Of a DNA stretch of 64,000 nt, positions 15,791-28,115 are shown in pieces. The notes beneath the pieces were generated by a model. It did no database searches and had not been told where the DNA came from. It saw only the letters and a list, made by a program, of their open reading frames with translations. The translations under genes were made by a program, and so were the position numbers. The stretch lies in NCBI RefSeq assembly GCF_056712565.1, contig NZ_CM160072.1; one strand, 5' to 3'. Each line of letters begins with the position of its first letter. Positions within the stretch are counted from its first letter, which is position 1.

Positions 15791-15967
15791 TCATTTCCTC
15801 GCACGATGTCTTAGCAACCGGATATCCCACAGGTGAGCCGTGTAGTTGAAGGTTTTTACGTCAGATTCTTTTGGGATTGGCTTGCGTTTATTTCTGGTGC
15901 GTTTCGTTGGAAGGTATTTGCAGTTTTCGCAGATGATGTCGGTGATACTTCGTCGCTGTCGCCTCAT
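15791..15967 (-). CDS. ninD: NinD (58 aa)
   Basis: [56 protein letters not shown] is recognised. ATGA overlap with ninB. Confidence 0.8.
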
Positions 15968-16374
15968 TCGTACCTCCTGTCGGTAAATCTGACACCCTGA
16001 CCAATAGCCCATGCTGTTGTGTACTCGATCAGACTTGCCATACGCTTCACACTCATCTGCGCGCTGCTTTCGCGAATGTTGACGTATTCGCCTTCAAGCC
16101 CGGGCAAAACATCAGCTTCCTGTTTTGTTGCCACTGCATGACCGCTGATCAACAAAACCTTCCATTGTTCTGGTTTTAACCATTTATCGCGCCACTGAAC
16201 TTGCCTAGCGATATCTGCGACCATCGCGTGAAATTTTGCGTTCTGGTCAAGGTTGCGCTTGTAGTCAGTAATGCGGATGGTGACTGGCTTGTCTTTATCG
16301 AGTGGTGTTGCGAGGATGGCATTTATTGCAGCTTGCTGTTGTTGCTTAGTTCGGAGGAATATTGTTTGCTTCAC
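15964..16374 (-). CDS. ninB: NinB (Orf-family recombination mediator, 136 aa)
   Basis: ORF track. NRSLDQN-like motif ([13 protein letters not shown]) and overall pattern of lambda NinB. GTG start with AAGGAG SD. Confidence 0.8.
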
Positions 16375-16385
16375 TGAATACTCCT

Positions 16386-16577
16386 TTATTTTTTATGCCT
16401 GTAACCCCATTCTTCCAGCAACCTTGCGGCGTACCACCCAAGAAACAAAGGAAAGAACATTACAATGAGATATTTCCCGCCACGGTCAATGTTCGAAATT
16501 GACCAGATTACGATGTAACCAGTGCAGGACAGGAATATTACAAACCCCAAAAAGCTACTTCGTCGACTCATGCTCAC
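16386..16577 (-). CDS. Small two-TM membrane protein (63 aa), unknown function
   Basis: ORF track. Two hydrophobic helices and a basic C-terminus. The start overlaps the stop of the upstream 104-aa ORF (ATGA). Confidence 0.5.
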   Translation of the reverse strand: MSMSRRSSFLGFVIFLSCTGYIVIWSISNIDRGGKYLIVMFFPLFLGWYAARLLEEWGYRHKK

Positions 16578-16888
16578 TCCTTCACTTTGATTCCAGCGGC
16601 GCGGATAGCCTCTACATCGCTTTCGTATTGCGATTCTGCACCTGAGTCATAGCCAATGTGATAATCACCGGGAAGTGGGCCTTTCTTTGGCTTTTGCAGC
16701 TCAATTTCAATAGCTGCTCTCGATGCCTGCCACGTTTGCCAGTGGCCTTGAACATCGTCCATCACGTATTGACCACCAATATCACCACTGCCAATTTCAT
16801 GGTGATTTTCAGGGTAACGGATAAGGTCTGAAGATTCGCCCCCCACGTCGTAACCAACTCTCTTCAAACTGGCATCTGCTTTCGTCAT
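16574..16888 (-). CDS. Acidic soluble hypothetical protein (104 aa as drawn; may be the C-terminal part of a frameshifted larger gene)
   Basis: ORF track. No convincing SD before ATG 16888. Overlaps the upstream ORF by 80 nt. Confidence 0.5.
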   Translation of the reverse strand: MTKADASLKRVGYDVGGESSDLIRYPENHHEIGSGDIGGQYVMDDVQGHWQTWQASRAAIEIELQKPKKGPLPGDYHIGYDSGAESQYESDVEAIRAAGIKVKE

Positions 16889-16991
16889 CTTTCATAAGGC
16901 AGTCACATTCAATAAAAATCGGCTCTCCCCAAGGAGTAGAACCTCCGCTATCACACATTCCTGTGTTATTGCACTTTTGGCACTTGCTCAC
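16809..16991 (-). CDS. Cys-rich small protein (60 aa; CQKCNNTG...CDSGG...ECDC zinc-ribbon-like)
   Basis: ORF track. GTG start with GGAGG SD at 5 nt. The last 27 codons overlap the next ORF out of frame. Confidence 0.5.
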   Translation of the reverse strand: MSKCQKCNNTGMCDSGGSTPWGEPIFIECDCLMKDDESRCQFEESWLRRGGRIFRPYPLP

Positions 16992-17003
16992 ATTAACCTC
17001 CGA

Positions 17004-17210
17004 TTAACTCACAAAACGCCACGCCACTTTTGCTACGACAACAGGCATAACACCGATAATCACCCACAGAAAAATGCTACCGAAAAGCACACCAACCAGG
17101 TCTTTACCTTCGCCTACCAACCGGACAAAACTGCTGGCAACCACAATGAACGTCGCCACCATCCACATAGCACCGAGAATCCTCAATGCAGAAAAAATCA
17201 ACTCAACCAC
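17004..17210 (-). CDS. Small two-TM membrane protein (68 aa), unknown function
   Basis: ORF track. GTG start preceded by GGGGGAGGG SD at 6 nt. Two long hydrophobic helices. Confidence 0.55.
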   Translation of the reverse strand: MVELIFSALRILGAMWMVATFIVVASSFVRLVGEGKDLVGVLFGSIFLWVIIGVMPVVVAKVAWRFVS

Positions 17211-17224
17211 GATTTACCCTCCCC

Positions 17225-17257
17225 CAAATAAAAAGGCCTGCGATTACCAGCAGGCCT
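17225..17257 (-). terminator. tR2-like intrinsic terminator between the helicase gene and the nin region
   Basis: Minus strand: AGGCCTGC-(8 nt)-GCAGGCCT followed by TTTTATTTG, 26 nt after the helicase stop. Confidence 0.65.
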
Positions 17258-17282
17258 GTTACAAGCTCAGTGATGTAGATGG

Positions 17283-18659
17283 TCATACGTCAGCCCCTTG
17301 TGCATATCGTCTGCCACGCGCAGCAGGTGCATTTGATGCTGTGCAAATCTGTCTGGCTTCATCCTGGTCACATGCAACAAAGTGTCCGTTGCAGAACCGC
17401 TGGTAAACCGTACCAAGTGAGCCAAAACGGTTTTTCGTCACGATGATTTCAGCAAATGGCGCGGCGCTACTGTTCTCGTCATATACCGCTTCCCGATAGA
17501 GCATGATGATTGAGTCTGCGTCCTGTTCAATGCTTCCTGAATCACGCAAATCTGCGTTTGTCGGGCGTTTGTTTGGTCGCTTCTCAACATCGCGTGAAAG
17601 CTGACTCAGGGAAATAACCGGTGTTTTCAGGTCTTTCGCCATCGCCTTCAGGCTTCCGGAGATGTGAGCAATTGCGAGGTCGTTGCGGTCTGCTTTCGGC
17701 TTCTCAATCAGGCCAAGATAATCCGCCATGATGAGTGAGAGGTTTGGATTTTCCTGTTTGTGCCGTTCTGCGATTGAGCGTATTTCTTCGACCGATAATC
17801 GCGAGGCATCGACTACCCATACATCCAAATCTGCAAGCTGACTCATGCCGTTAGCAACACGTGCCCAGCCCTCGTCATCCATCGATGCAGGATTTCGCAG
17901 TACGCTAACCGACATCCTCCCGGCGTTGGCAATGCTTCGCTCTGCAATCTGCAATGCGCTCATTTCCATTGAGAAAATCAATACCCCGCGCCGGACGTCA
18001 GAACCAGGAATAACGCGGCTTGCAACGCCTTCGGCAATCTTCAGCGCCAGTTCGGTTTTCCCCATACCAGGACGAGCAGCGATTATCACCAGGTCTTCCG
18101 CGTTCATCCCTCCGGTGATGGCATCAAGTTCTTCGATTCCGGTCTTCAGGGTATCGGACTCTTCTCCGTTCCTCAGACGCCTGTCAAGCGTGTCAGTGTA
18201 GTCGGTGATGATTTCCCCTAACCGTACAGGTTTAACCTCGTCACGGGGCTTTCTGATGGCTGAGAGACGTTTTACAAGTTCATCCATCGCCTGACTCGAT
18301 GCGTCGATGGTTCCGCTTTGGATTGGTTCACGCATTTCATCCATGATTTCCAGCACCAGACGGCGGTGATAGTTATCCGCGACCATTCCGGCATATCCCT
18401 TCAGGTTTGCGGCGCTCGGGCAGTTTTTGCTGGTCATCAGGATTGACGTGAAATGCTCCTCTCCGCACGCCTCGGCAACCATCAGCGCGTCGATTAGGTT
18501 TCTGTTTCTCGCCTGCTTCCGGATAACCTCGAAGGCTTTCCGGTAGAGCGGAATTGAAAACGCTTCCGGCTCCAGCGTTGCAAGAACGTCACTGGCGGTT
18601 GGAGTTAATCCACCAATCAGCAGGCCACCGATAACGCTCGCTTCGATATCCTGTCTCAT
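17283..18659 (-). CDS. DnaB-family replicative helicase, P22 gp12-like (458 aa)
   Basis: ORF track. Same length as P22 gp12, with Walker A (ARPGMGKTE) and DnaB C-terminal motifs. Confidence 0.9.
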
Positions 18660-24449: not shown

Positions 24450-24525
24450 GGAATTTACCATGAGAGGACTTGCTTAAGAGAAAGAGTTTCGGTTCTGTTA
24501 ATGACAACAAATATCTGAATGCGAT

Positions 24526-25062
24526 GTGGCGGAGTGGGAAGAAATGAAACAAATGTCACTAATTGAGATGGATGGTTTTCTGAAAGGTAAATGCATCCCA
24601 AGTGATTTAAAGGTTAACGAAACAAACGCTGAATACCTTGTCCGTAAGTTCGGTGAACTTGAATCAAAACTGGAAACGGCGTTGCGGGAGTGTAGTTCTG
24701 CTGGAATCACGATTGATAACCTTGAGGCTAAATGCGCGAAGATGGCTGCTGAAAATACCTCACTTAAGCAATCTGAGAAGGAATTTAATGACTTTTGTCG
24801 TGAGGAGTTTAGCGAATGGGAAGATGATGTTACTGAAACCCCAGCCACCGATGCTTTTCTGGCTGAAGTGCGGGCGCAGGGGGTGGATGCTGCTATAGAA
24901 GCTGCAAAAAATCTGGTGGCCCAAGAATATGAGTATAAGGATTTCAAAGCGGCGCAGAGTGATTGCTGTATGCACCCTGGTTCAGACCTGGTAGGGAAGG
25001 TTGAAATGACTGAGTGGTTAGTTGACTTTGCTGCCCAGCTTCGCAAAGGAGGCAACCAGTGA
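24526..25062 (+). CDS. Ead/Ea22-like coiled-coil protein (178 aa; start uncertain, GTG 24526 or ATG 24544)
   Basis: ORF track. The TPATDAFLAEVRAQGVDAAIE motif and coiled-coil N-terminal half are typical of Ea22-like proteins of lambdoid prophages. Confidence 0.6.
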   Translation: MAEWEEMKQMSLIEMDGFLKGKCIPSDLKVNETNAEYLVRKFGELESKLETALRECSSAGITIDNLEAKCAKMAAENTSLKQSEKEFNDFCREEFSEWEDDVTETPATDAFLAEVRAQGVDAAIEAAKNLVAQEYEYKDFKAAQSDCCMHPGSDLVGKVEMTEWLVDFAAQLRKGGNQ

Positions 25063-25358
25063 CTGTATGTCTTATTGATAAACGTCGACGTGGGCAACAA
25101 ATACCATCTGTTGAAATGCCGAATCACACATGGTTTTGCGTACTTGATATCGATGGTATGGATACGTTGGTTGACACTCGTCATTACTGCGATACCGCAA
25201 CAGCTACTCCGGCGAAAGCAAAGAAAATGGCTGCTCTGATAGAAAACTGGACTCCACCTGATGGTTGGTGCAATGGGAATGATCGAGATTGGCACGAAAA
25301 AATGAAGGGCTATATCTGCGATTTTTTACGTAAATGCAACGGCTTCAGGGGGATGTGA
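25059..25358 (+). CDS. Hypothetical Cys/Trp-rich protein (99 aa)
   Basis: ORF track. GTGA overlap with the upstream gene. Confidence 0.5.
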   Translation: MTVCLIDKRRRGQQIPSVEMPNHTWFCVLDIDGMDTLVDTRHYCDTATATPAKAKKMAALIENWTPPDGWCNGNDRDWHEKMKGYICDFLRKCNGFRGM

Positions 25359-25359
25359 T

Positions 25360-25932
25360 ATGACCAAAATTAACTATCAGGCACTGCGTGAGGCGGCAGA
25401 ACGTGCAATTCCGGCAATGGAACGCCTGTTAATGTTGCCAGTTGATGATGATTTGTTAAGTGAACAGGAACTTAAGGATTACGGTGTGGATATTGATGCG
25501 CTCAACGCCTTCAAATTTCTGACCGGACCAGAAACCGTGCTGGCGCTGCTGGATGAACGGGAAAGAAACCAGCAATACATCAAACGCCGCGACCAGGAGA
25601 ACGAGGAAATTGCGCTAACGGTAGGGAAGCTGCGCGTTGAGCTGGAAGCTGCAGAGAAGCGCATTGCAGAACTGGAAGCCGAACCTGTAAGCCAAACTTA
25701 CAAGTTGAACGAGCTGTCGGGCAACTATCCGGTAACTCCGGATGGTTGGATAAGCTGTAGTGAGCGAATGCCCGCTCAAGATGATTGGATTTTAATTTAT
25801 TCAAAGCACGGCGAGTATATGGCAGGACAGGTACAAGGGGAATACGTGGAGTTGAGCGACGGCACTTTATCGTGGTTAGGGAACGCCTTGTACTGGATGC
25901 CTCTACCGGAACCGCCGCAGGAGGTTAATTGA
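25360..25932 (+). CDS. Ea22-like N-terminus / DUF551 C-terminal domain protein (190 aa)
   Basis: ORF track. The C-terminal W.S..ERMP....W.L.......G...........WMPLPEPP pattern is typical of DUF551. Confidence 0.65.
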   Translation: MTKINYQALREAAERAIPAMERLLMLPVDDDLLSEQELKDYGVDIDALNAFKFLTGPETVLALLDERERNQQYIKRRDQENEEIALTVGKLRVELEAAEKRIAELEAEPVSQTYKLNELSGNYPVTPDGWISCSERMPAQDDWILIYSKHGEYMAGQVQGEYVELSDGTLSWLGNALYWMPLPEPPQEVN

Positions 25933-26126
25933 TGGTCTCCTTCGCGAAATATACGATTATTGACTGGATAGCATTCATTCAGGTTTTGCTCATCTGGTTT
26001 TATATGGCTTACAGGAGTGGACAGTGGATTGTCAGTGTAGCCTGTAGCAATGGATGGCGTTGGTGGAACCGAAAGAATAAAAAAAGCGCTGGCCTTGGCT
26101 TCGTTTTACGAAGCATTCAATCTTAA
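25932..26126 (+). CDS. Small membrane protein (64 aa)
   Basis: ATG 25932 overlaps the upstream stop (TGATG). AGGAGG SD 8 nt upstream. Hydrophobic N-terminal half. Confidence 0.5.
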   Translation: MVSFAKYTIIDWIAFIQVLLIWFYMAYRSGQWIVSVACSNGWRWWNRKNKKSAGLGFVLRSIQS

Positions 26127-26209
26127 CAGTCTTCAGCCTGGTTCTGTCGTTGTAGTCACCACTCAAAGCGGCATGACGATACAAATTCACAAGCCAAAGG
26201 AGGAAGGTC

Positions 26210-26494
26210 GTGGCTAACCTGCAACTTGCCGTTAAAGGTGAATACTTCGATGCCATGATTCGCGGAGAGAAAACGGAAGAGTATCGCCTGTGTAATGACT
26301 ACTGGAATAAGCGAATTATGTTCCGCGAGTATGACCGCCTGATTATCACAAAGGGATATCCGAAGCGCGACGATTCCAGCCGCAGAATTGACGTCCCGTA
26401 TGACGGATATGAAATCAAGACAATCACACATCCGCACTTCGGCGATAAACCGGTAAAGGTGTTCGCTATAAAGGTGAATATCGACAATGAATGA
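26210..26494 (+). CDS. ASCH (PUA-like) domain protein (94 aa)
   Basis: ORF track. GTG start with AAGGAGGAAGG SD. ..VKGEYFDAMIRGEKTEEYR... is typical of ASCH-domain proteins. Confidence 0.6.
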   Translation: MANLQLAVKGEYFDAMIRGEKTEEYRLCNDYWNKRIMFREYDRLIITKGYPKRDDSSRRIDVPYDGYEIKTITHPHFGDKPVKVFAIKVNIDNE

Positions 26495-26566
26495 TAATCC
26501 TCGCACTCGCGGGGATTTCTTTTATCTGAACTCGCTACGGCGGGTTTTGTTTTATGGAGATGATAA

Positions 26567-26734
26567 ATGCACTTCCGAGTCACAGGTGAATGGAATGGAG
26601 AGCCATTCAACAGAGTTATCGAAGCAGAGAACATCAACGACTGCTATGACCACTGGATGCTGTGGGCGCAGATAGCACATGCAGACGTAACTAATATTCG
26701 AATTGAAGAACTGAAAGAACACCAAGCCGCCTGA
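26567..26734 (+). CDS. Small hypothetical protein (55 aa), K-12 ypdJ-region homologue
   Basis: Own translation: MHFRVTGEWNGEPFNRVIEAENINDCYDHWMLWAQIAHADVTNIRIEELKEHQAA. The stop codon sits in the loop of the following terminator. Confidence 0.5.
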   Translation: MHFRVTGEWNGEPFNRVIEAENINDCYDHWMLWAQIAHADVTNIRIEELKEHQAA

Positions 26735-26746
26735 TGGCGGTTTTTT
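26725..26746 (+). terminator. Intrinsic terminator ending the PL operon before torI
   Basis: CCGCC-TGAT-GGCGG followed by T6. Confidence 0.7.
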
Positions 26747-26756
26747 ATTGCCTGAT

Positions 26757-26772
26757 TTGCAGGTTCGATTCC
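26757..26772 (+). other. tRNA-Arg (argW) T-arm-like fragment TTGCAGGTTCGATTCC
   Basis: 16/16 match to my recollection of argW (..AATTGCAGGTTCGATTCCTGCAGGGGACACCA). The T-stem 3' strand is missing, so this is not a tRNA gene. Confidence 0.5.
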
Positions 26773-26791
26773 CTATTCGGAGATAGCACTC

Positions 26792-26992
26792 ATGCAACAC
26801 GAACTACAACCTGATTCACTGGTTGATTTGAAATTCATCATGGCCGATACTGGCTTCGGTAAAACCTTCATCTATGACCGGATTAAGTCCGGCGACCTGC
26901 CAAAAGCCAAAGTTATCCACGGGCGAGCAAGATGGTTATATCGTGACCATTGTGAATTCAAAAATAAGCTCTTAAGCCGCGCCAATGGGTAA
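26792..26992 (+). CDS. torI: Excisionase / TorR inhibitor TorI (66 aa)
   Basis: MQHELQPDSLVDLKFIMADTGFGKTFIYDRIKSGDLPKAKVIHGRARWLYRDHCEFKNKLLSRANG is recognised as K-12 KplE1 TorI. Last phage gene before attR. Confidence 0.85.
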   Translation: MQHELQPDSLVDLKFIMADTGFGKTFIYDRIKSGDLPKAKVIHGRARWLYRDHCEFKNKLLSRANG

Positions 26993-27065
26993 AATAGCGG
27001 GTAAAATATTTCTCACATCTAAAAAACACCATTCCAATCAATCCCCTGCCGCCTCAAGTAGATGT

Positions 27066-27080
27066 CTGCAGGGGACACCA
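27066..27080 (+). other. attR core: displaced 3' end of argW (CTGCAGGGGACACCA)
   Basis: Matches the T-stem/acceptor/CCA end of argW from memory. Marks the phage-to-chromosome switch; dsdC follows as in K-12. Confidence 0.75.
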
Positions 27081-27179
27081 TTCTTGTGTTTATCCCTAAA
27101 ACCACGTAAAAACCGTAAATTATTAAATTCGCACTAGCAATGCCGAATAAGGCACACCAGGAACTCGTGGTCTTATTCA

Positions 27180-28115
27180 TTATGAAGTGGTTTTTACCTG
27201 TTCTCTTAACCAAGTAATAAATGCCTCAATTTTTGGCCACTGCCTGCCCGGTAATGTAGTGATGTAATAATGCTGATGGCATTTCACCGTCATATCGCCA
27301 AACGGCGCGACGAGCTCACCACTGGCAAGCCTTTTTTGTACCAGACGTTTCCTTCCCATCGCCACCCCAATATGATTCATCGCGGCGATAACGGCTAAAT
27401 CAGAGCGATCAAAGCCAATTCCAGAAGATGTCGGCAAATTAACCGCATAATGTTGCGCCCAACTATGCCATTCATCCGTACCGGAGTCGTTGCTCCATGC
27501 CTGTCTGTCATGGAGCAACGTACAGTGACGCAGGTTAATTACCGTGTTGGTTAAATCATGTCTATGAGCGTACTCCGGGCTGCAAACTGGCAGGATTTCT
27601 TCATCCATCAGAAAGTGATGAGCCAATTGCGCTGACGGCGCATCATCAAAGTAGATCGCCAAATCGATTCCGGCACGTTGCAAATTGACATTGTCATTAC
27701 CAGTGAGCACGGTGAGCGAAATAGACGGATATCGGCGTGTAAAGTCACCTAATGCGGGCACCAACCAGCATTGGGCGATAGAGGGCCGGGAATACAACGT
27801 TAACGTTCCCGATAACTCCTGATTTTTGATATCCAGAATTTCCTGATTCAGGGTATCCAGCGACGATTTTAGCGCCCAATAAACACGTTTCCCCTCGTGC
27901 GTTAATTCCACTTTGCGATGGGAACGAACAAACAACTGAATACCTAATTCTTCTTCCAGCTGATTGATACGGTGACTTACCGCACTGGGGCTCAGCGACA
28001 ATTCCTCTGCCGCAAGGGCGAAGGACTGATGCCTGGCAGCCACTTCAAAAGTATGCAGTTTTGATAGTTGCCAGCCGTTAAGCAGTCGATTTCTTATTTC
28101 ACGAAGGGGTTCCAT
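27180..28115 (-). CDS. dsdC: LysR-family activator of dsdXA (311 aa from MEPLREIRN...)
   Basis: Recognised K-12 DsdC sequence; the K-12 start is the internal ATG at 28115. Confidence 0.95.
   Translation of the reverse strand: MEPLREIRNRLLNGWQLSKLHTFEVAARHQSFALAAEELSLSPSAVSHRINQLEEELGIQLFVRSHRKVELTHEGKRVYWALKSSLDTLNQEILDIKNQELSGTLTLYSRPSIAQCWLVPALGDFTRRYPSISLTVLTGNDNVNLQRAGIDLAIYFDDAPSAQLAHHFLMDEEILPVCSPEYAHRHDLTNTVINLRHCTLLHDRQAWSNDSGTDEWHSWAQHYAVNLPTSSGIGFDRSDLAVIAAMNHIGVAMGRKRLVQKRLASGELVAPFGDMTVKCHQHYYITTLPGRQWPKIEAFITWLREQVKTTS

What the first reader, a model, noticed from the sequence alone, without database searches (positions are those of the whole stretch)
16386..17257. Terminator-bounded cassette of four tiny genes (2-TM / Cys-rich / acidic / 2-TM) between the helicase and ninB
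Seen: a strong intrinsic terminator (17225-17257) follows the helicase gene. After it come four tightly packed minus-strand ORFs. They are a 68-aa protein with two long hydrophobic helices (GGGGGAGGG SD), a 60-aa protein with CQKC...C...CDC (GGAGG SD), a 104-aa acidic soluble protein, and a 63-aa two-helix membrane protein whose ATG overlaps the preceding stop (ATGA). I do not recognise any of them as lambda or P22 nin genes; ninB/D/X/F/H are all recognisable further on. Knowledge: the ren/ninA position of lambdoid phages is a variable accessory slot (lambda Ren counters Rex exclusion). Inference: two small membrane proteins bracketing a zinc-ribbon-like protein and an acidic protein could form a small membrane-associated exclusion or toxin/antitoxin-like module. 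They could equally be a set of unrelated fillers.
Basis: partly seen in the sequence, partly recalled or inferred. Interest (0 to 1): 0.5.

Follow-up and report, generated by a model that had tools for sequence, protein, structure and literature searches.

The report
Three nin-region accessory genes, one broken
The supposed four-gene cassette is the ordinary, shuffled start of a P22-like prophage's non-essential nin region: the lambda tR2 terminator followed by three independently assorting small genes of unknown function, one split in two by a single extra G.

Summary
The terminator is real: its hairpin and T-run are base-identical to phage lambda tR2. The two small two-helix membrane ORFs (68 aa; 61 aa from its ATG) are real genes under purifying selection. 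The 60-aa Cys-rich ORF and the 104-aa acidic ORF are not two genes. They overlap by 80 nt and are halves of one 138-aa gene (phrog_343; PF26207; PGAP 'phiTE_015 family, frameshifted'), broken by a G5-to-G6 insertion at 16844..16839. The intact allele exists in phage phiv205-1 and other E. coli genomes.

So there are three genes, plus a missed 27-aa NinA mini-ORF that runs through tR2. They do not travel as a unit:
- Of 80 viral loci with the 68-aa gene, 33 go straight to ninB, 35 add only a PF26207 gene, and 9 carry the 61-aa gene.
- The 61-aa gene occurs without the 68-aa gene, and once directly after a DnaB helicase.
- The full arrangement is in 54 of 5426 complete E. coli genomes.

No promoter, downstream terminator, defence-family match or solved-fold match was found. 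The soluble gene is broken in about 30 genomes while both membrane genes stay intact, which argues against a toxin/antitoxin module. Biochemical functions remain unknown. Interest is low.

The parts
17283..18659 (-). DnaB-type replicative helicase gene. This is context: the last replication gene of the early-right operon.
   Evidence: The ORF is. PGAP names it 'replicative DNA helicase' on the identical sequence.
17203..17286 (-). 27-aa NinA mini-ORF ([27 protein letters not shown]). Its ATG overlaps the helicase stop as ATGA. It reads through the tR2 hairpin. Its TGA overlaps the GTG of the next gene (GTGGTTGA).
   Evidence: The sequence is. The equivalent 84-nt ORF is annotated ninA in HK620, SPN9CC and HK630. 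The same ORF is present in lambda (alignment A2). PMC4824070 describes a NinA translation start upstream of lambda tR2.
17226..17257 (-). Intrinsic terminator tR2: stem-loop 17257..17234 followed by TTTTATTT.
   Evidence: The scan is. The hairpin and T-run are base-identical to lambda, HK620 (annotated 'terminator tR2') and HK022. The exact 22-nt hairpin core is present in 73 of 80 related loci.
17004..17210 (-). ORF1: a 68-aa protein with two hydrophobic helices. It is predicted to be a small inner-membrane hairpin and is the first gene after tR2. Function unknown.
   Evidence: phrog_1165 matches at E=6.7e-36. 193 clusters were found, nearly all 68 aa long. 59 distinct alleles are all in frame, with dN/dS mostly 0.1-0.4. 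PGAP lists it as WP_000229808.1, hypothetical. It matches in 447 of 5426 E. coli genomes, 409 of them at 80% coverage or more.
16574..16991 (-). One gene of the PF26207 / phrog_343 / 'phiTE_015' family, here a frameshifted pseudogene. It is 138 aa when intact.
16896..16991 (-). N-terminal Cys-rich module of the 138-aa gene, a putative CxxC...CxC zinc knuckle of 32 aa. GTG start behind a GGAGG Shine-Dalgarno sequence.
   Evidence: The Shine-Dalgarno sequence is. The same module (CxKCxGxGxxDSGGVQPWGxPI...CDC) forms the N-terminus of the unrelated phage proteins Seurat gp78 and PAK_P3 gp127, and sits in frame inside P0026.
16839..16844 (-). G6 homopolymer. It has one G more than the intact allele (G5) and causes the frameshift.
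   Evidence: Alignment with phiv205-1 is and the coordinates are. The G6 allele is 100% identical in at least 26 complete genomes, and the G5 allele occurs in IMT5155, DE17 and others.
16386..16571 (-). ORF4: a 61-aa protein with two hydrophobic helices. ATG start 6 nt behind an AAGGAG that lies inside the 3' end of the preceding gene. Predicted small inner-membrane hairpin. Function unknown. Not annotated by PGAP.
   Evidence: dN/dS is 0.20 against a 72%-identical homologue, compared with 0.78 and 1.85 in the other two frames. It is present at 80% coverage or more in 192 of 5426 E. coli genomes, with no annotated feature in any of the 30 rows sampled. No PHROG, Pfam, NCBIfam or PADLOC match.
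15964..16374 (-). ninB, the right-hand boundary of the slot.

Best explanation
The region is the promoter-proximal end of the nin region of a decaying P22-like (Lederbergvirus-type) prophage. It is not a functional four-gene module.

Anatomy, shown directly:
- The helicase stop overlaps the start of the 27-aa NinA mini-ORF.
- NinA is read through the lambda-type tR2 terminator hairpin.
- The NinA stop overlaps the GTG of ORF1 (68 aa, two transmembrane helices).
- 12 nt later comes a zinc-knuckle/PF26207 fusion gene (138 aa when intact), broken here by a +1 G insertion in a G-run.
- 3 nt after its stop comes ORF4 (61 aa, two transmembrane helices).
- 11 nt later comes ninB.

Expression, inferred from this layout and from established lambda and P22 biology:
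- All of these genes sit on the pR early-right transcript downstream of tR2. They have no promoter of their own.
- They should therefore be silent in the repressed lysogen. They should be made only as delayed-early products, once antiterminated RNA polymerase reads through tR2.
- They are translated as a chain of closely linked cistrons, as described for the lambda ninR region.

Evolution, shown:
- The three genes are separate members of the lambdoid nin gene pool, joined at conserved junctions.
- ORF1 is the commonest first gene after tR2. PF26207 genes are optional and mosaic within the gene. ORF4 is a rarer add-on, usually placed right after the conserved 3' end of a PF26207 gene.
- In this prophage the PF26207 gene is a pseudogene, in line with other signs of decay.

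Function, inferred with low confidence:
- ORF1 and ORF4 each act alone as small inner-membrane hairpin proteins during lytic growth, as non-essential modulators at the host envelope.
- The acidic PF26207 protein acts in the cytoplasm on a host or phage partner.
- None of them depends on the others.
For: Terminator identity. The hairpin and T-run are base-identical to lambda tR2 and to the tR2 annotated in HK620. The exact hairpin occurs in 73 of 80 ORF1 loci, and ORF1 starts at a fixed offset in 71 of them.

One gene, not two.
- A single extra G separates the window from phiv205-1, which has an intact 138-aa ORF.
- phrog_343 spans both halves.
- PGAP marks the gene 'frameshifted'.
- The intact protein P0001 is recorded on 142 contigs.

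The frameshift is a real allele. It is 100% identical over 908 nt in at least 26 independently sequenced complete genomes. About two thirds of the 51 genomes that carry the Cys-core junction have G6.

The genes are real.
- ORF1 has dN/dS of 0.1-0.4 across 59 alleles, all 207 nt long.
- ORF4 has dN/dS of 0.20 in frame, against 0.78 and 1.85 out of frame, with its length conserved.
- The Cys module is conserved at the protein level in unrelated phages.

Independent assortment.
- Of 80 ORF1 loci, 33 have ORF1 followed directly by ninB, 35 add only a PF26207 gene, 9 have ORF4 and 6 have the Cys module.
- Of 62 ORF4 loci, 20 lack ORF1. About 13 show the order helicase, 71-aa gene, ORF4, 60-aa transmembrane gene, PF26207, ninB.
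- A 72%-identical ORF4 homologue lies directly after a DnaB gene.
- The whole arrangement is found in 1 of 50,697 phage records and in 54 of 5426 E. coli genomes. ORF1 alone is found in 409 genomes and ORF4 alone in 192.

No independent expression signals. No sigma-70-like site was found on the minus strand between 14 and 19 kb, and there is no terminator after ORF4.

Prophage decay. The window is identical to E. coli ATCC 11775. There the prophage has three more pseudogenes and no integrase next to torI.

Literature.
- nin genes are non-essential in the laboratory, are drawn from a pool of 30-50 genes, and are sometimes non-functional (PMC5630979).
- nin genes are tightly packed with ATGA overlaps (PMC8022706).
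- A NinA translation start lies upstream of lambda tR2 (PMC4824070).
Against: - Nothing here measures expression or phenotype. 'Delayed-early only' rests on the absence of a consensus promoter in a simple scan and on analogy with lambda and P22. A weak or non-sigma-70 promoter cannot be excluded.
- ORF4 is usually immediately preceded by a PF26207 gene with the same 6-nt junction (about 48 of 62 loci). This is a real, if partial, linkage and could reflect function rather than a recombination joint.
- The slot holds several small hydrophobic proteins: NinA, ORF1, ORF4 and, in other phages, a 60-aa transmembrane protein. This could mean a shared envelope-directed role that co-occurrence statistics alone would miss.
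- The truncated 60-aa zinc-knuckle product could still be active.
- No biochemical function is established for any of the three genes.
Confidence: 0.78

Rival explanations
1. The ORFs form a membrane-associated toxin/antitoxin-like or superinfection-exclusion module. One or both small membrane proteins would be the effector, and the soluble acidic or zinc-ribbon protein would be the regulator or antitoxin.
For: - Two small two-helix membrane proteins flank an acidic soluble protein with pI 4.4.
- The slot corresponds in position to lambda ren.
- ORF4 is usually found directly after a PF26207 gene.
Against: - The components assort independently.
- The soluble gene is frameshifted in about 30 complete genomes while both membrane genes remain intact and identical.
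- There is no own promoter and no downstream terminator.
- No PADLOC match was found for any product.
- ORF1 most often stands alone next to ninB (33 of 80 loci).
Confidence: 0.05
2. The G-run is a regulated switch rather than decay. Slipped-strand phase variation, transcriptional slippage or +1 ribosomal frameshifting at GGGGGG would produce either a stand-alone 60-aa zinc-knuckle peptide or the full 138-aa fusion.
For: - The change lies in a homopolymer.
- Both G5 and G6 alleles are found in nature with otherwise identical flanks.
- The zinc module occurs fused to many different partners elsewhere, so it may work on its own.
Against: - From general knowledge, six G is short for phase variation or RNA polymerase slippage.
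- All G6 genomes listed in full are 99.9-100% identical to the window over 908 nt and many are named ExPEC/APEC strains such as APEC O1 and S88. This fits one inherited mutation.
- No slippery heptamer or stimulatory structure was looked for or noticed.
- The same prophage carries other pseudogenes.
- Most family members have no Cys module and no such G-run context.
Confidence: 0.05
3. ORF4, and perhaps ORF1, is not a gene. On this view it is a chance ORF in a spacer, as its absence from PGAP annotation would suggest.
For: - ORF4 is not annotated in any RefSeq genome sampled.
- It has no PHROG, Pfam or NCBIfam family.
- Only 4 protein clusters were found among 5.8 billion.
- Among the closely related alleles the substitutions look nearly neutral: 4 synonymous against 12 non-synonymous.
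Against: - Against the 72%-identical homologue, dN/dS is 0.20 in frame but 0.78 and 1.85 in the other frames.
- The length of 61 aa is conserved.
- An AAGGAG lies 6 nt before the ATG.
- The two-helix hydropathy pattern is kept in the divergent copy.
- ORF1 has 59 in-frame alleles with dN/dS of 0.1-0.4.
Confidence: 0.07

Closest known systems
Phage lambda tR2 terminator with the NinA mini-ORF and the 'chain of interlinked genes' of the ninR region (Kroger and Hobom 1982, as cited in PMC4824070 and PMC8022706)
   Same: - The hairpin and T-run are identical.
- The same NinA reading frame starts at an ATGA overlap with the preceding gene and ends overlapping the start of the next gene.
- The same G-rich Shine-Dalgarno sequence (GGGGGAG) follows the terminator.
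- The following small genes are tightly packed.
   Different: - In lambda the gene before tR2 is ren and the gene after it is ninB.
- Here the gene before is a DnaB-type helicase.
- Here three extra genes (ORF1, PF26207, ORF4) lie between tR2 and ninB.
The same slot in phages phiv205-1, HK022 (genes 58-60), HK75, HK620, vB_EcoP-611R6 and Stx2a-converting phages
   Same: - tR2 followed by an ORF1 homologue (53-100% identical) is found in all of them.
- HK022, 611R6 and phiv205-1 also have a PF26207 gene next. phiv205-1 has the identical three-gene set with the 138-aa gene intact.
   Different: - In HK75 and HK630 the ORF1 homologue is followed directly by ninB.
- HK022 and 611R6 have PF26207 variants without the Cys module and a different third gene.
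- Only phiv205-1, out of 50,697 phage records, covers 80% or more of the cassette.
PF26207 / phrog_343 / NCBI 'phiTE_015 family protein' (for example Sf6 gene 48 and HK022 gene 59)
   Same: The family's constant motifs (SRxQFEE, WQxWQASRAAIEIE, AGxKVKE) are all present in the reconstructed 138-aa product.
   Different: - The gene is frameshifted here.
- It carries an extra N-terminal Cys-rich module that most members lack.
- The family has no known function and no solved or recognisable fold.
Phage-encoded small membrane proteins with known roles: T4 Imm, P22 SieA, HK97 gp15 (exclusion) and class II holins. These are recalled from general knowledge only.
   Same: Small size and a predicted two-helix inner-membrane topology.
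   Different: - No sequence relationship was detected.
- The genes are not in the lysis cassette.
- They do not have the promoter-gene-terminator layout of a moron.
- The resemblance is only one of general type.

Membership tests
Lambda-type tR2 intrinsic terminator | A G+C-rich hairpin followed by a T-run, with sequence identity to lambda tR2 | tested here: met
   The stem has 8 pairs, 6 of them G-C, followed by TTTTATTT. The sequence is base-identical to lambda at 40.57-40.64 kb and to the tR2 annotated in HK620.
Lambda-type tR2 intrinsic terminator | Located after the replication genes, inside the NinA mini-ORF and ahead of the nin genes | tested here: met
   The order is helicase, then NinA/tR2, then ORF1 and onward to ninB, with a Q-family antiterminator further downstream.
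Lambda-type tR2 intrinsic terminator | Terminates transcription and is overridden by the phage antiterminator | not testable with these tools
   This needs transcript mapping in induced and uninduced lysogens.
nin-region accessory gene pool of lambdoid phages | Lies between the replication genes and the Q-type late activator, on the early-right operon | tested here: met
   The PGAP table of the identical ATCC 11775 sequence gives the order replication protein, helicase, this slot, NinB/E/X/F, RusA, NinH, Q.
nin-region accessory gene pool of lambdoid phages | Tightly packed or overlapping cistrons with mosaic presence or absence among related phages | tested here: met
   The junctions are an ATGA overlap, a GTGGTTGA overlap, and gaps of 12, 3 and 11 nt. 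Combinatorial contents of the slot are shown.
nin-region accessory gene pool of lambdoid phages | Dispensable for plaque formation | not testable with these tools
   Only literature on lambda, P22 and Sf6 nin deletions bears on this. The natural frameshift shows the 138-aa gene is dispensable for keeping the prophage.
PF26207 / phrog_343 / phiTE_015 family | Significant profile match over the family core | tested here: met
   phrog_343 matches the 104-aa half at E=6e-23 and the 60-aa half at E=0.0032. All homologues carry a precomputed PF26207 assignment. The local Pfam and NCBIfam copies do not hold the model.
PF26207 / phrog_343 / phiTE_015 family | Intact reading frame | tested here: not met
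   A +1 G at 16844..16839 breaks the frame.
Toxin/antitoxin or membrane-toxin module | Obligate co-occurrence of the partner genes | tested here: not met
   ORF1 is found alone in 33 of 80 loci. ORF4 is found without ORF1 in 20 of 62 loci, and once without either partner.
Toxin/antitoxin or membrane-toxin module | The neutralising partner is intact wherever the toxin is intact | tested here: not met
   The soluble gene is frameshifted in about 30 genomes that have intact ORF1 and ORF4.
Toxin/antitoxin or membrane-toxin module | Own promoter, and similarity to known toxin/antitoxin or defence proteins | tested here: not met
   No minus-strand sigma-70-like site was found and there are no PADLOC hits. 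The promoter scan is crude.
Prophage superinfection-exclusion genes (Rex, Sie, HK97 gp15 type) or morons | Expressed from the repressed prophage, typically as a promoter-gene-terminator unit | tested here: inconclusive
   No promoter or downstream terminator was found, and the only terminator lies upstream. Actual expression was not measured.
Class II (two-helix) holins | Located in the lysis cassette next to the endolysin, with a charged C-terminal tail | tested here: not met
   The holin, endolysin and Rz genes lie about 5 kb downstream. ORF1 ends in the short tail KVAWRFVS.

The most novel reading that the evidence does not exclude
The slot right after tR2 may be a dedicated landing pad for small lytic-phase host-interaction genes.
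- ORF1 and ORF4, with NinA and the 60-aa transmembrane protein seen in relatives, would be inner-membrane effectors. They might give early superinfection exclusion or tune membrane or lysis timing.
- The acidic PF26207 protein, which is highly mosaic within the gene, would be a rapidly diversifying inhibitor of a variable host or defence target. Its constant motifs would act both as a structural scaffold and as recombination joints.
- A further untested twist is that translation of NinA through the tR2 hairpin sets how much transcription reaches these genes.
Probability: 0.12. Interest if true: 0.55.

Novelty: new member of a known kind. Interest (0 to 1): 0.18.

Why it matters
The main value is corrective.
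- An apparent four-gene 'module' dissolves into the known tR2/NinA element plus three independently shuffled nin-pool genes, one of them a pseudogene.
- This prevents an exclusion or toxin/antitoxin label from being attached to it.

Smaller useful points:
1. A 61-aa membrane-protein gene under purifying selection is present in 192 complete E. coli genomes. It was unannotated in all 30 RefSeq records sampled.
2. PGAP's start for the PF26207 gene probably drops a conserved N-terminal zinc-knuckle module. Unrelated E. coli and Pseudomonas phage proteins carry the same module.
3. A 68-aa membrane protein is one of the most constant passengers after tR2 in E. coli lambdoid prophages, and has no known role.

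If any of these small proteins proved to act on the host envelope or on a defence system, the finding would gain interest. Nothing here shows that.

Tried and rejected
- Family searches. Pfam, NCBIfam and PADLOC scans of all products gave no usable family. The local Pfam copy lacks PF26207. A weak Glyoxalase_4 hit (22 bits, below the cut-off of 27) on one family member was treated as spurious.
- Sequence search of solved structures. A profile search of PDB sequences found nothing at E up to 10.
- Structure prediction.
  - The AlphaFold2 model of the intact 138-aa protein was poor (pLDDT 57), and a BFVD search with it gave no match at E of 0.001 or better.
  - The AFDB50 library was unavailable.
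- A misreading, corrected. I first read as saying ORF1 is 'NinA'. The records showed that NinA is the separate 27-aa ORF across tR2, and that the ORF1 homologue is simply unannotated in HK620.
- Paralogy. ORF1, ORF4, NinA and the 60-aa transmembrane protein show no significant pairwise similarity, so they are not paralogues.
- Literature. Searches for phiTE_015, PF26207 and Sf6 gene 48 found nothing. No expression or phenotype data for these genes were found. One search failed on syntax.
- Sequencing error. This was rejected as the cause of the extra G, because the allele recurs in many independently sequenced complete genomes.
Full report
WHAT IS IN THE SEQUENCE

All features are on the minus strand. 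A DnaB-type helicase gene ends at 17283. The scan finds a terminator-like stem-loop at 17257..17234 with 8 pairs, 6 of them G-C, followed by TTTTATTT. Terminator-like sites as a class are not enriched in this stretch: 5 were found against 5.8 expected. This one, however, is not a chance match. Aligned with lambda (ren-ninB spacer), HK620 and HK022, the hairpin and T-run are identical base for base, and the HK620 record annotates the site as 'terminator tR2'.

THE MISSED MINI-ORF

- Its ATG overlaps the helicase stop as ATGA.
- It is read straight through the hairpin.
- Its TGA overlaps the GTG of the next gene (GTGGTTGA).
- The equivalent 84-nt ORF is annotated ninA in HK620, SPN9CC and HK630.
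- The same frame exists in lambda, where its stop overlaps the ninB start.
- A study of tR2 function notes a NinA translation start just upstream of lambda tR2 (PMC4824070).

THE ORFS

ORF1 (17210..17004) is 68 aa.
- It has a GTG start behind GGGGGAGGG, the same G-rich Shine-Dalgarno sequence that precedes ninB in lambda.
- It has two long hydrophobic segments.
- It matches phrog_1165 end to end at E=6.7e-36.
- It has 193 homologue clusters, nearly all 68 aa long.
- Across the fetched loci there are 59 distinct alleles. All are 207 nt and in frame, with dN/dS mostly 0.1-0.4.
- PGAP annotates it as a hypothetical protein. It is a real gene.

The '60-aa Cys-rich' ORF (16991..16809) and the '104-aa acidic' ORF (16888..16574) overlap by 80 nt in different frames. 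Four lines of evidence show they are one gene.
- One PHROG profile, phrog_343 (135 positions), matches residues 25-54 of the first ORF to profile positions 26-55. It matches residues 27-104 of the second ORF to profile positions 53-125.
- Phage phiv205-1 is 99.8% identical over the region and has a single 138-aa ORF there.
- Within the cassette the only difference from the window is one extra G in a G-run: G6 at 16844..16839 here and G5 in the phage.
- PGAP annotates the identical sequence in several RefSeq genomes as 'phiTE_015 family protein, frameshifted' or 'hypothetical protein, frameshifted'.

The extra G is not a sequencing error.
- The 908-nt stretch is 100% identical, G6 included, in at least 26 complete genomes (APEC O1, ATCC 11775, NCTC11151 and others). 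S88 carries the G6-length allele at 99.9% identity.
- IMT5155, DE17 and others carry G5.
- Of the 51 genomes that hold the Cys-core junction, roughly two thirds are G6.

ORF4 is best read as 61 aa from the ATG at 16571.
- An AAGGAG lies 6 nt upstream of that ATG, inside the 3' end of the previous gene.
- The GTG two codons earlier, listed by the tool, overlaps the stop as GTGA.
- All homologues begin MSRR or MDRR.
- It has two hydrophobic segments.
- It has no PHROG, Pfam, NCBIfam or PADLOC family, and only four clusters among 5.8 billion proteins.
- PGAP does not annotate it in any of the 30 RefSeq genomes sampled, although it is present in 192 of 5426 genomes.

ORF4 nevertheless looks real. 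Against a 72%-identical homologue of the same length, dN/dS is 0.20 in its frame, compared with 0.78 and 1.85 in the other two frames.

THE 138-AA GENE

Homologues carry a precomputed PF26207 assignment. The local Pfam copy lacks that model. The family is strikingly mosaic within the gene.
- Constant motifs: SRxQFEE, WQxWQASRAAIEIE and AGxKVKE.
- Between them lie at least four alternative first segments and ten or more alternative second segments.
- The N-terminal extension is optional: none, a 32-aa Cys-rich module, a 36-aa 'MRWAIKHKSGR...' module, or both.

The Cys-rich module is real coding sequence.
- It has a GGAGG Shine-Dalgarno sequence before the GTG at 16991. The ATG that PGAP uses (16895) has none.
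- It is conserved, as CxKCxGxGxxDSGGVQPWGxPI...CDC, at the N-terminus of the unrelated proteins Seurat gp78 (179 aa) and Pseudomonas phage PAK_P3 gp127.
- It occurs in frame inside P0026.
- Four Cys are conserved (CxxC...CxC).

No function could be attached to the family.
- There is no PDB sequence match.
- The AlphaFold2 model of the 138-aa form was poor (pLDDT 57).
- The model of an 87-aa member was better (pLDDT 79; helix, helix, strand, loop, helix, strand).

DO THE GENES TRAVEL TOGETHER?

They do not.

At the DNA level:
- 397 phage records match part of the region, but only one (phiv205-1) covers 80% or more.
- Among 5426 complete E. coli genomes, 1983 match some part and 54 match 80% or more.
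- ORF1 alone is found in 409 genomes and ORF4 alone in 192.

At the protein level, among 80 viral loci chosen for carrying ORF1:
- 33 have ninB 11 nt after ORF1.
- 35 have ORF1 plus a PF26207 gene only.
- 9 have ORF4.
- 6 have the Cys module.

Among 62 viral loci chosen for carrying ORF4:
- 20 lack ORF1.
- About 13 show the order helicase, tR2, a 71-aa basic protein, ORF4, a different 60-aa membrane protein, PF26207, ninB.
- One locus type has two PF26207 paralogues in the same slot.

The divergent ORF4 homologue sits directly after a DnaB gene, with neither partner present.

Two linkages do stand out.
- tR2 with ORF1: the exact hairpin occurs in 73 of 80 ORF1 loci, and the ORF1 start follows at a fixed offset in 71 of them.
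- The 3' end of a PF26207 gene with ORF4: the same 6-nt junction occurs in about 48 of 62 loci, while the upstream gene varies from 35 to 100% identity.

I read both as conserved recombination joints in a mosaic region. A functional reason for the second cannot be excluded.

CONTEXT

Window positions 1-31698 are 100% identical to E. coli ATCC 11775, so its PGAP table applies to the window.
- The prophage is P22-like, with a P22-family capsid protein and homologues of gp4 and gp10.
- The gene order is CI-type repressor/Cro/CII, replication protein, helicase, this slot, NinB, NinE, NinX, NinF, KilAC antirepressor, DUF1364, RusA, NinH, Q, then the lysis genes.
- It carries three other pseudogenes.
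- It has no integrase between the xis-like torI gene and the chromosomal dsdC gene. This fits a decaying prophage in which a nin gene has also been lost.

On the coding strand between 14 and 19 kb the scan finds no sigma-70-like promoter. It finds no terminator between ORF4 and ninB. The cassette is therefore not a promoter-gene-terminator moron and is bounded by a terminator only upstream.

HOW IT MOST LIKELY WORKS

Shown: the genes form a chain of closely linked cistrons immediately downstream of tR2. The ORF1 Shine-Dalgarno sequence and start lie beyond the T-run, so ORF1 cannot be on a transcript that ends at tR2.

Inferred from lambda and P22 biology and from the lack of a promoter:
- They are silent in the lysogen.
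- They are made as delayed-early products only when antiterminated polymerase passes tR2.

Inferred with low confidence:
- ORF1 and ORF4 are independent small inner-membrane hairpin proteins. By the positive-inside pattern of their charges, both ends probably face the cytoplasm.
- They act on the host envelope during lytic growth.
- The acidic PF26207 protein (pI 4.4) acts on a cytoplasmic partner.

The literature describes nin genes as non-essential in the laboratory, drawn from a pool of 30-50 genes of which each phage has about ten, and sometimes non-functional (PMC5630979; PMC8022706).

THE TOXIN/ANTITOXIN OR EXCLUSION READING

It is not supported.
- The putative neutralising partner is broken in about 30 genomes in which both membrane genes are intact.
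- No defence-family model matches.
- There is no sign of expression in the lysogen.

A programmed or phase-variable frameshift at the G-run is possible but unlikely. The tract is short, and all G6 genomes listed in full are 99.9-100% identical to the window over 908 nt, which fits one inherited mutation.

VERDICT

- The terminator and the two membrane ORFs are real.
- The two middle ORFs are one frameshifted gene.
- A mini-ORF was missed.

The thing itself is an ordinary, mosaic start of a nin region. Novelty is limited to an unannotated but real 61-aa gene, a probably mis-started PF26207 annotation, and a mobile zinc-knuckle module. Interest is low.

Noticed in passing
window 17203-17286 (minus strand): A 27-aa hydrophobic 'NinA' mini-ORF is ATGA-coupled to the helicase stop. 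It is read through the tR2 hairpin and ends overlapping the ORF1 start. The same arrangement exists in lambda. Translation across the hairpin might modulate termination. PMC4824070 reports that ribosomes close to tR2 suppress it.
   Followed up: partly
window 16574-16991; alignment A1: The PF26207 family is mosaic within the gene. Three short constant motifs are separated by at least 4 and at least 10 alternative segments, and the N-terminal modules are optional. This looks like cassette exchange at conserved joints. The function and fold are unknown.
   Followed up: partly
window 16896-16991; L154 704-1243 (Seurat gp78); L155 671-1508 (PAK_P3 gp127): A 30-residue Cys-rich module (CxKCxGxGxxDSGGVQPWGxPI...CDC) is shared at 53-66% identity with the N-termini of otherwise unrelated proteins of E. 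coli Seuratvirus and Pseudomonas Nankokuvirus phages. It appears to be a mobile zinc-knuckle domain and matches no model in the local Pfam copy.
   Followed up: partly
window 16386-16571: The 61-aa ORF4 is present at 80% coverage or more in 192 of 5426 complete E. coli genomes. No feature is annotated over it in any of the 30 RefSeq records sampled. It appears to be a systematically missed small gene.
   Followed up: yes
window 16895 versus 16991: PGAP starts the PF26207 gene at an internal ATG (16895) that has no Shine-Dalgarno sequence. The GTG at 16991 has GGAGG and adds the conserved Cys module. The RefSeq start is probably wrong for this subfamily.
   Followed up: partly
window 24464-28115: The prophage looks defective. 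No integrase lies between the xis-like torI gene (26992..26792) and the chromosomal dsdC gene (28115..27180). Three more pseudogenes are annotated: DUF4752, frameshifted (26217..25932); ead/Ea22-like, partial (25671..25360); and DUF2737, partial (24547..24464).
   Followed up: no
window 1-31698: This stretch is 100% identical, in reverse complement, to E. coli ATCC 11775 (NZ_CP033092.2, 1518000-1549697). The prophage lies next to the dsdCXA locus.
   Followed up: yes
L107 2275-3313; L131 2008-3312: The same slot holds other fillers in related phages: a 71-aa basic protein, a further 60-aa multi-helix membrane protein, and two PF26207 paralogues in a single slot. Small hydrophobic proteins recur in this position.
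   Followed up: partly
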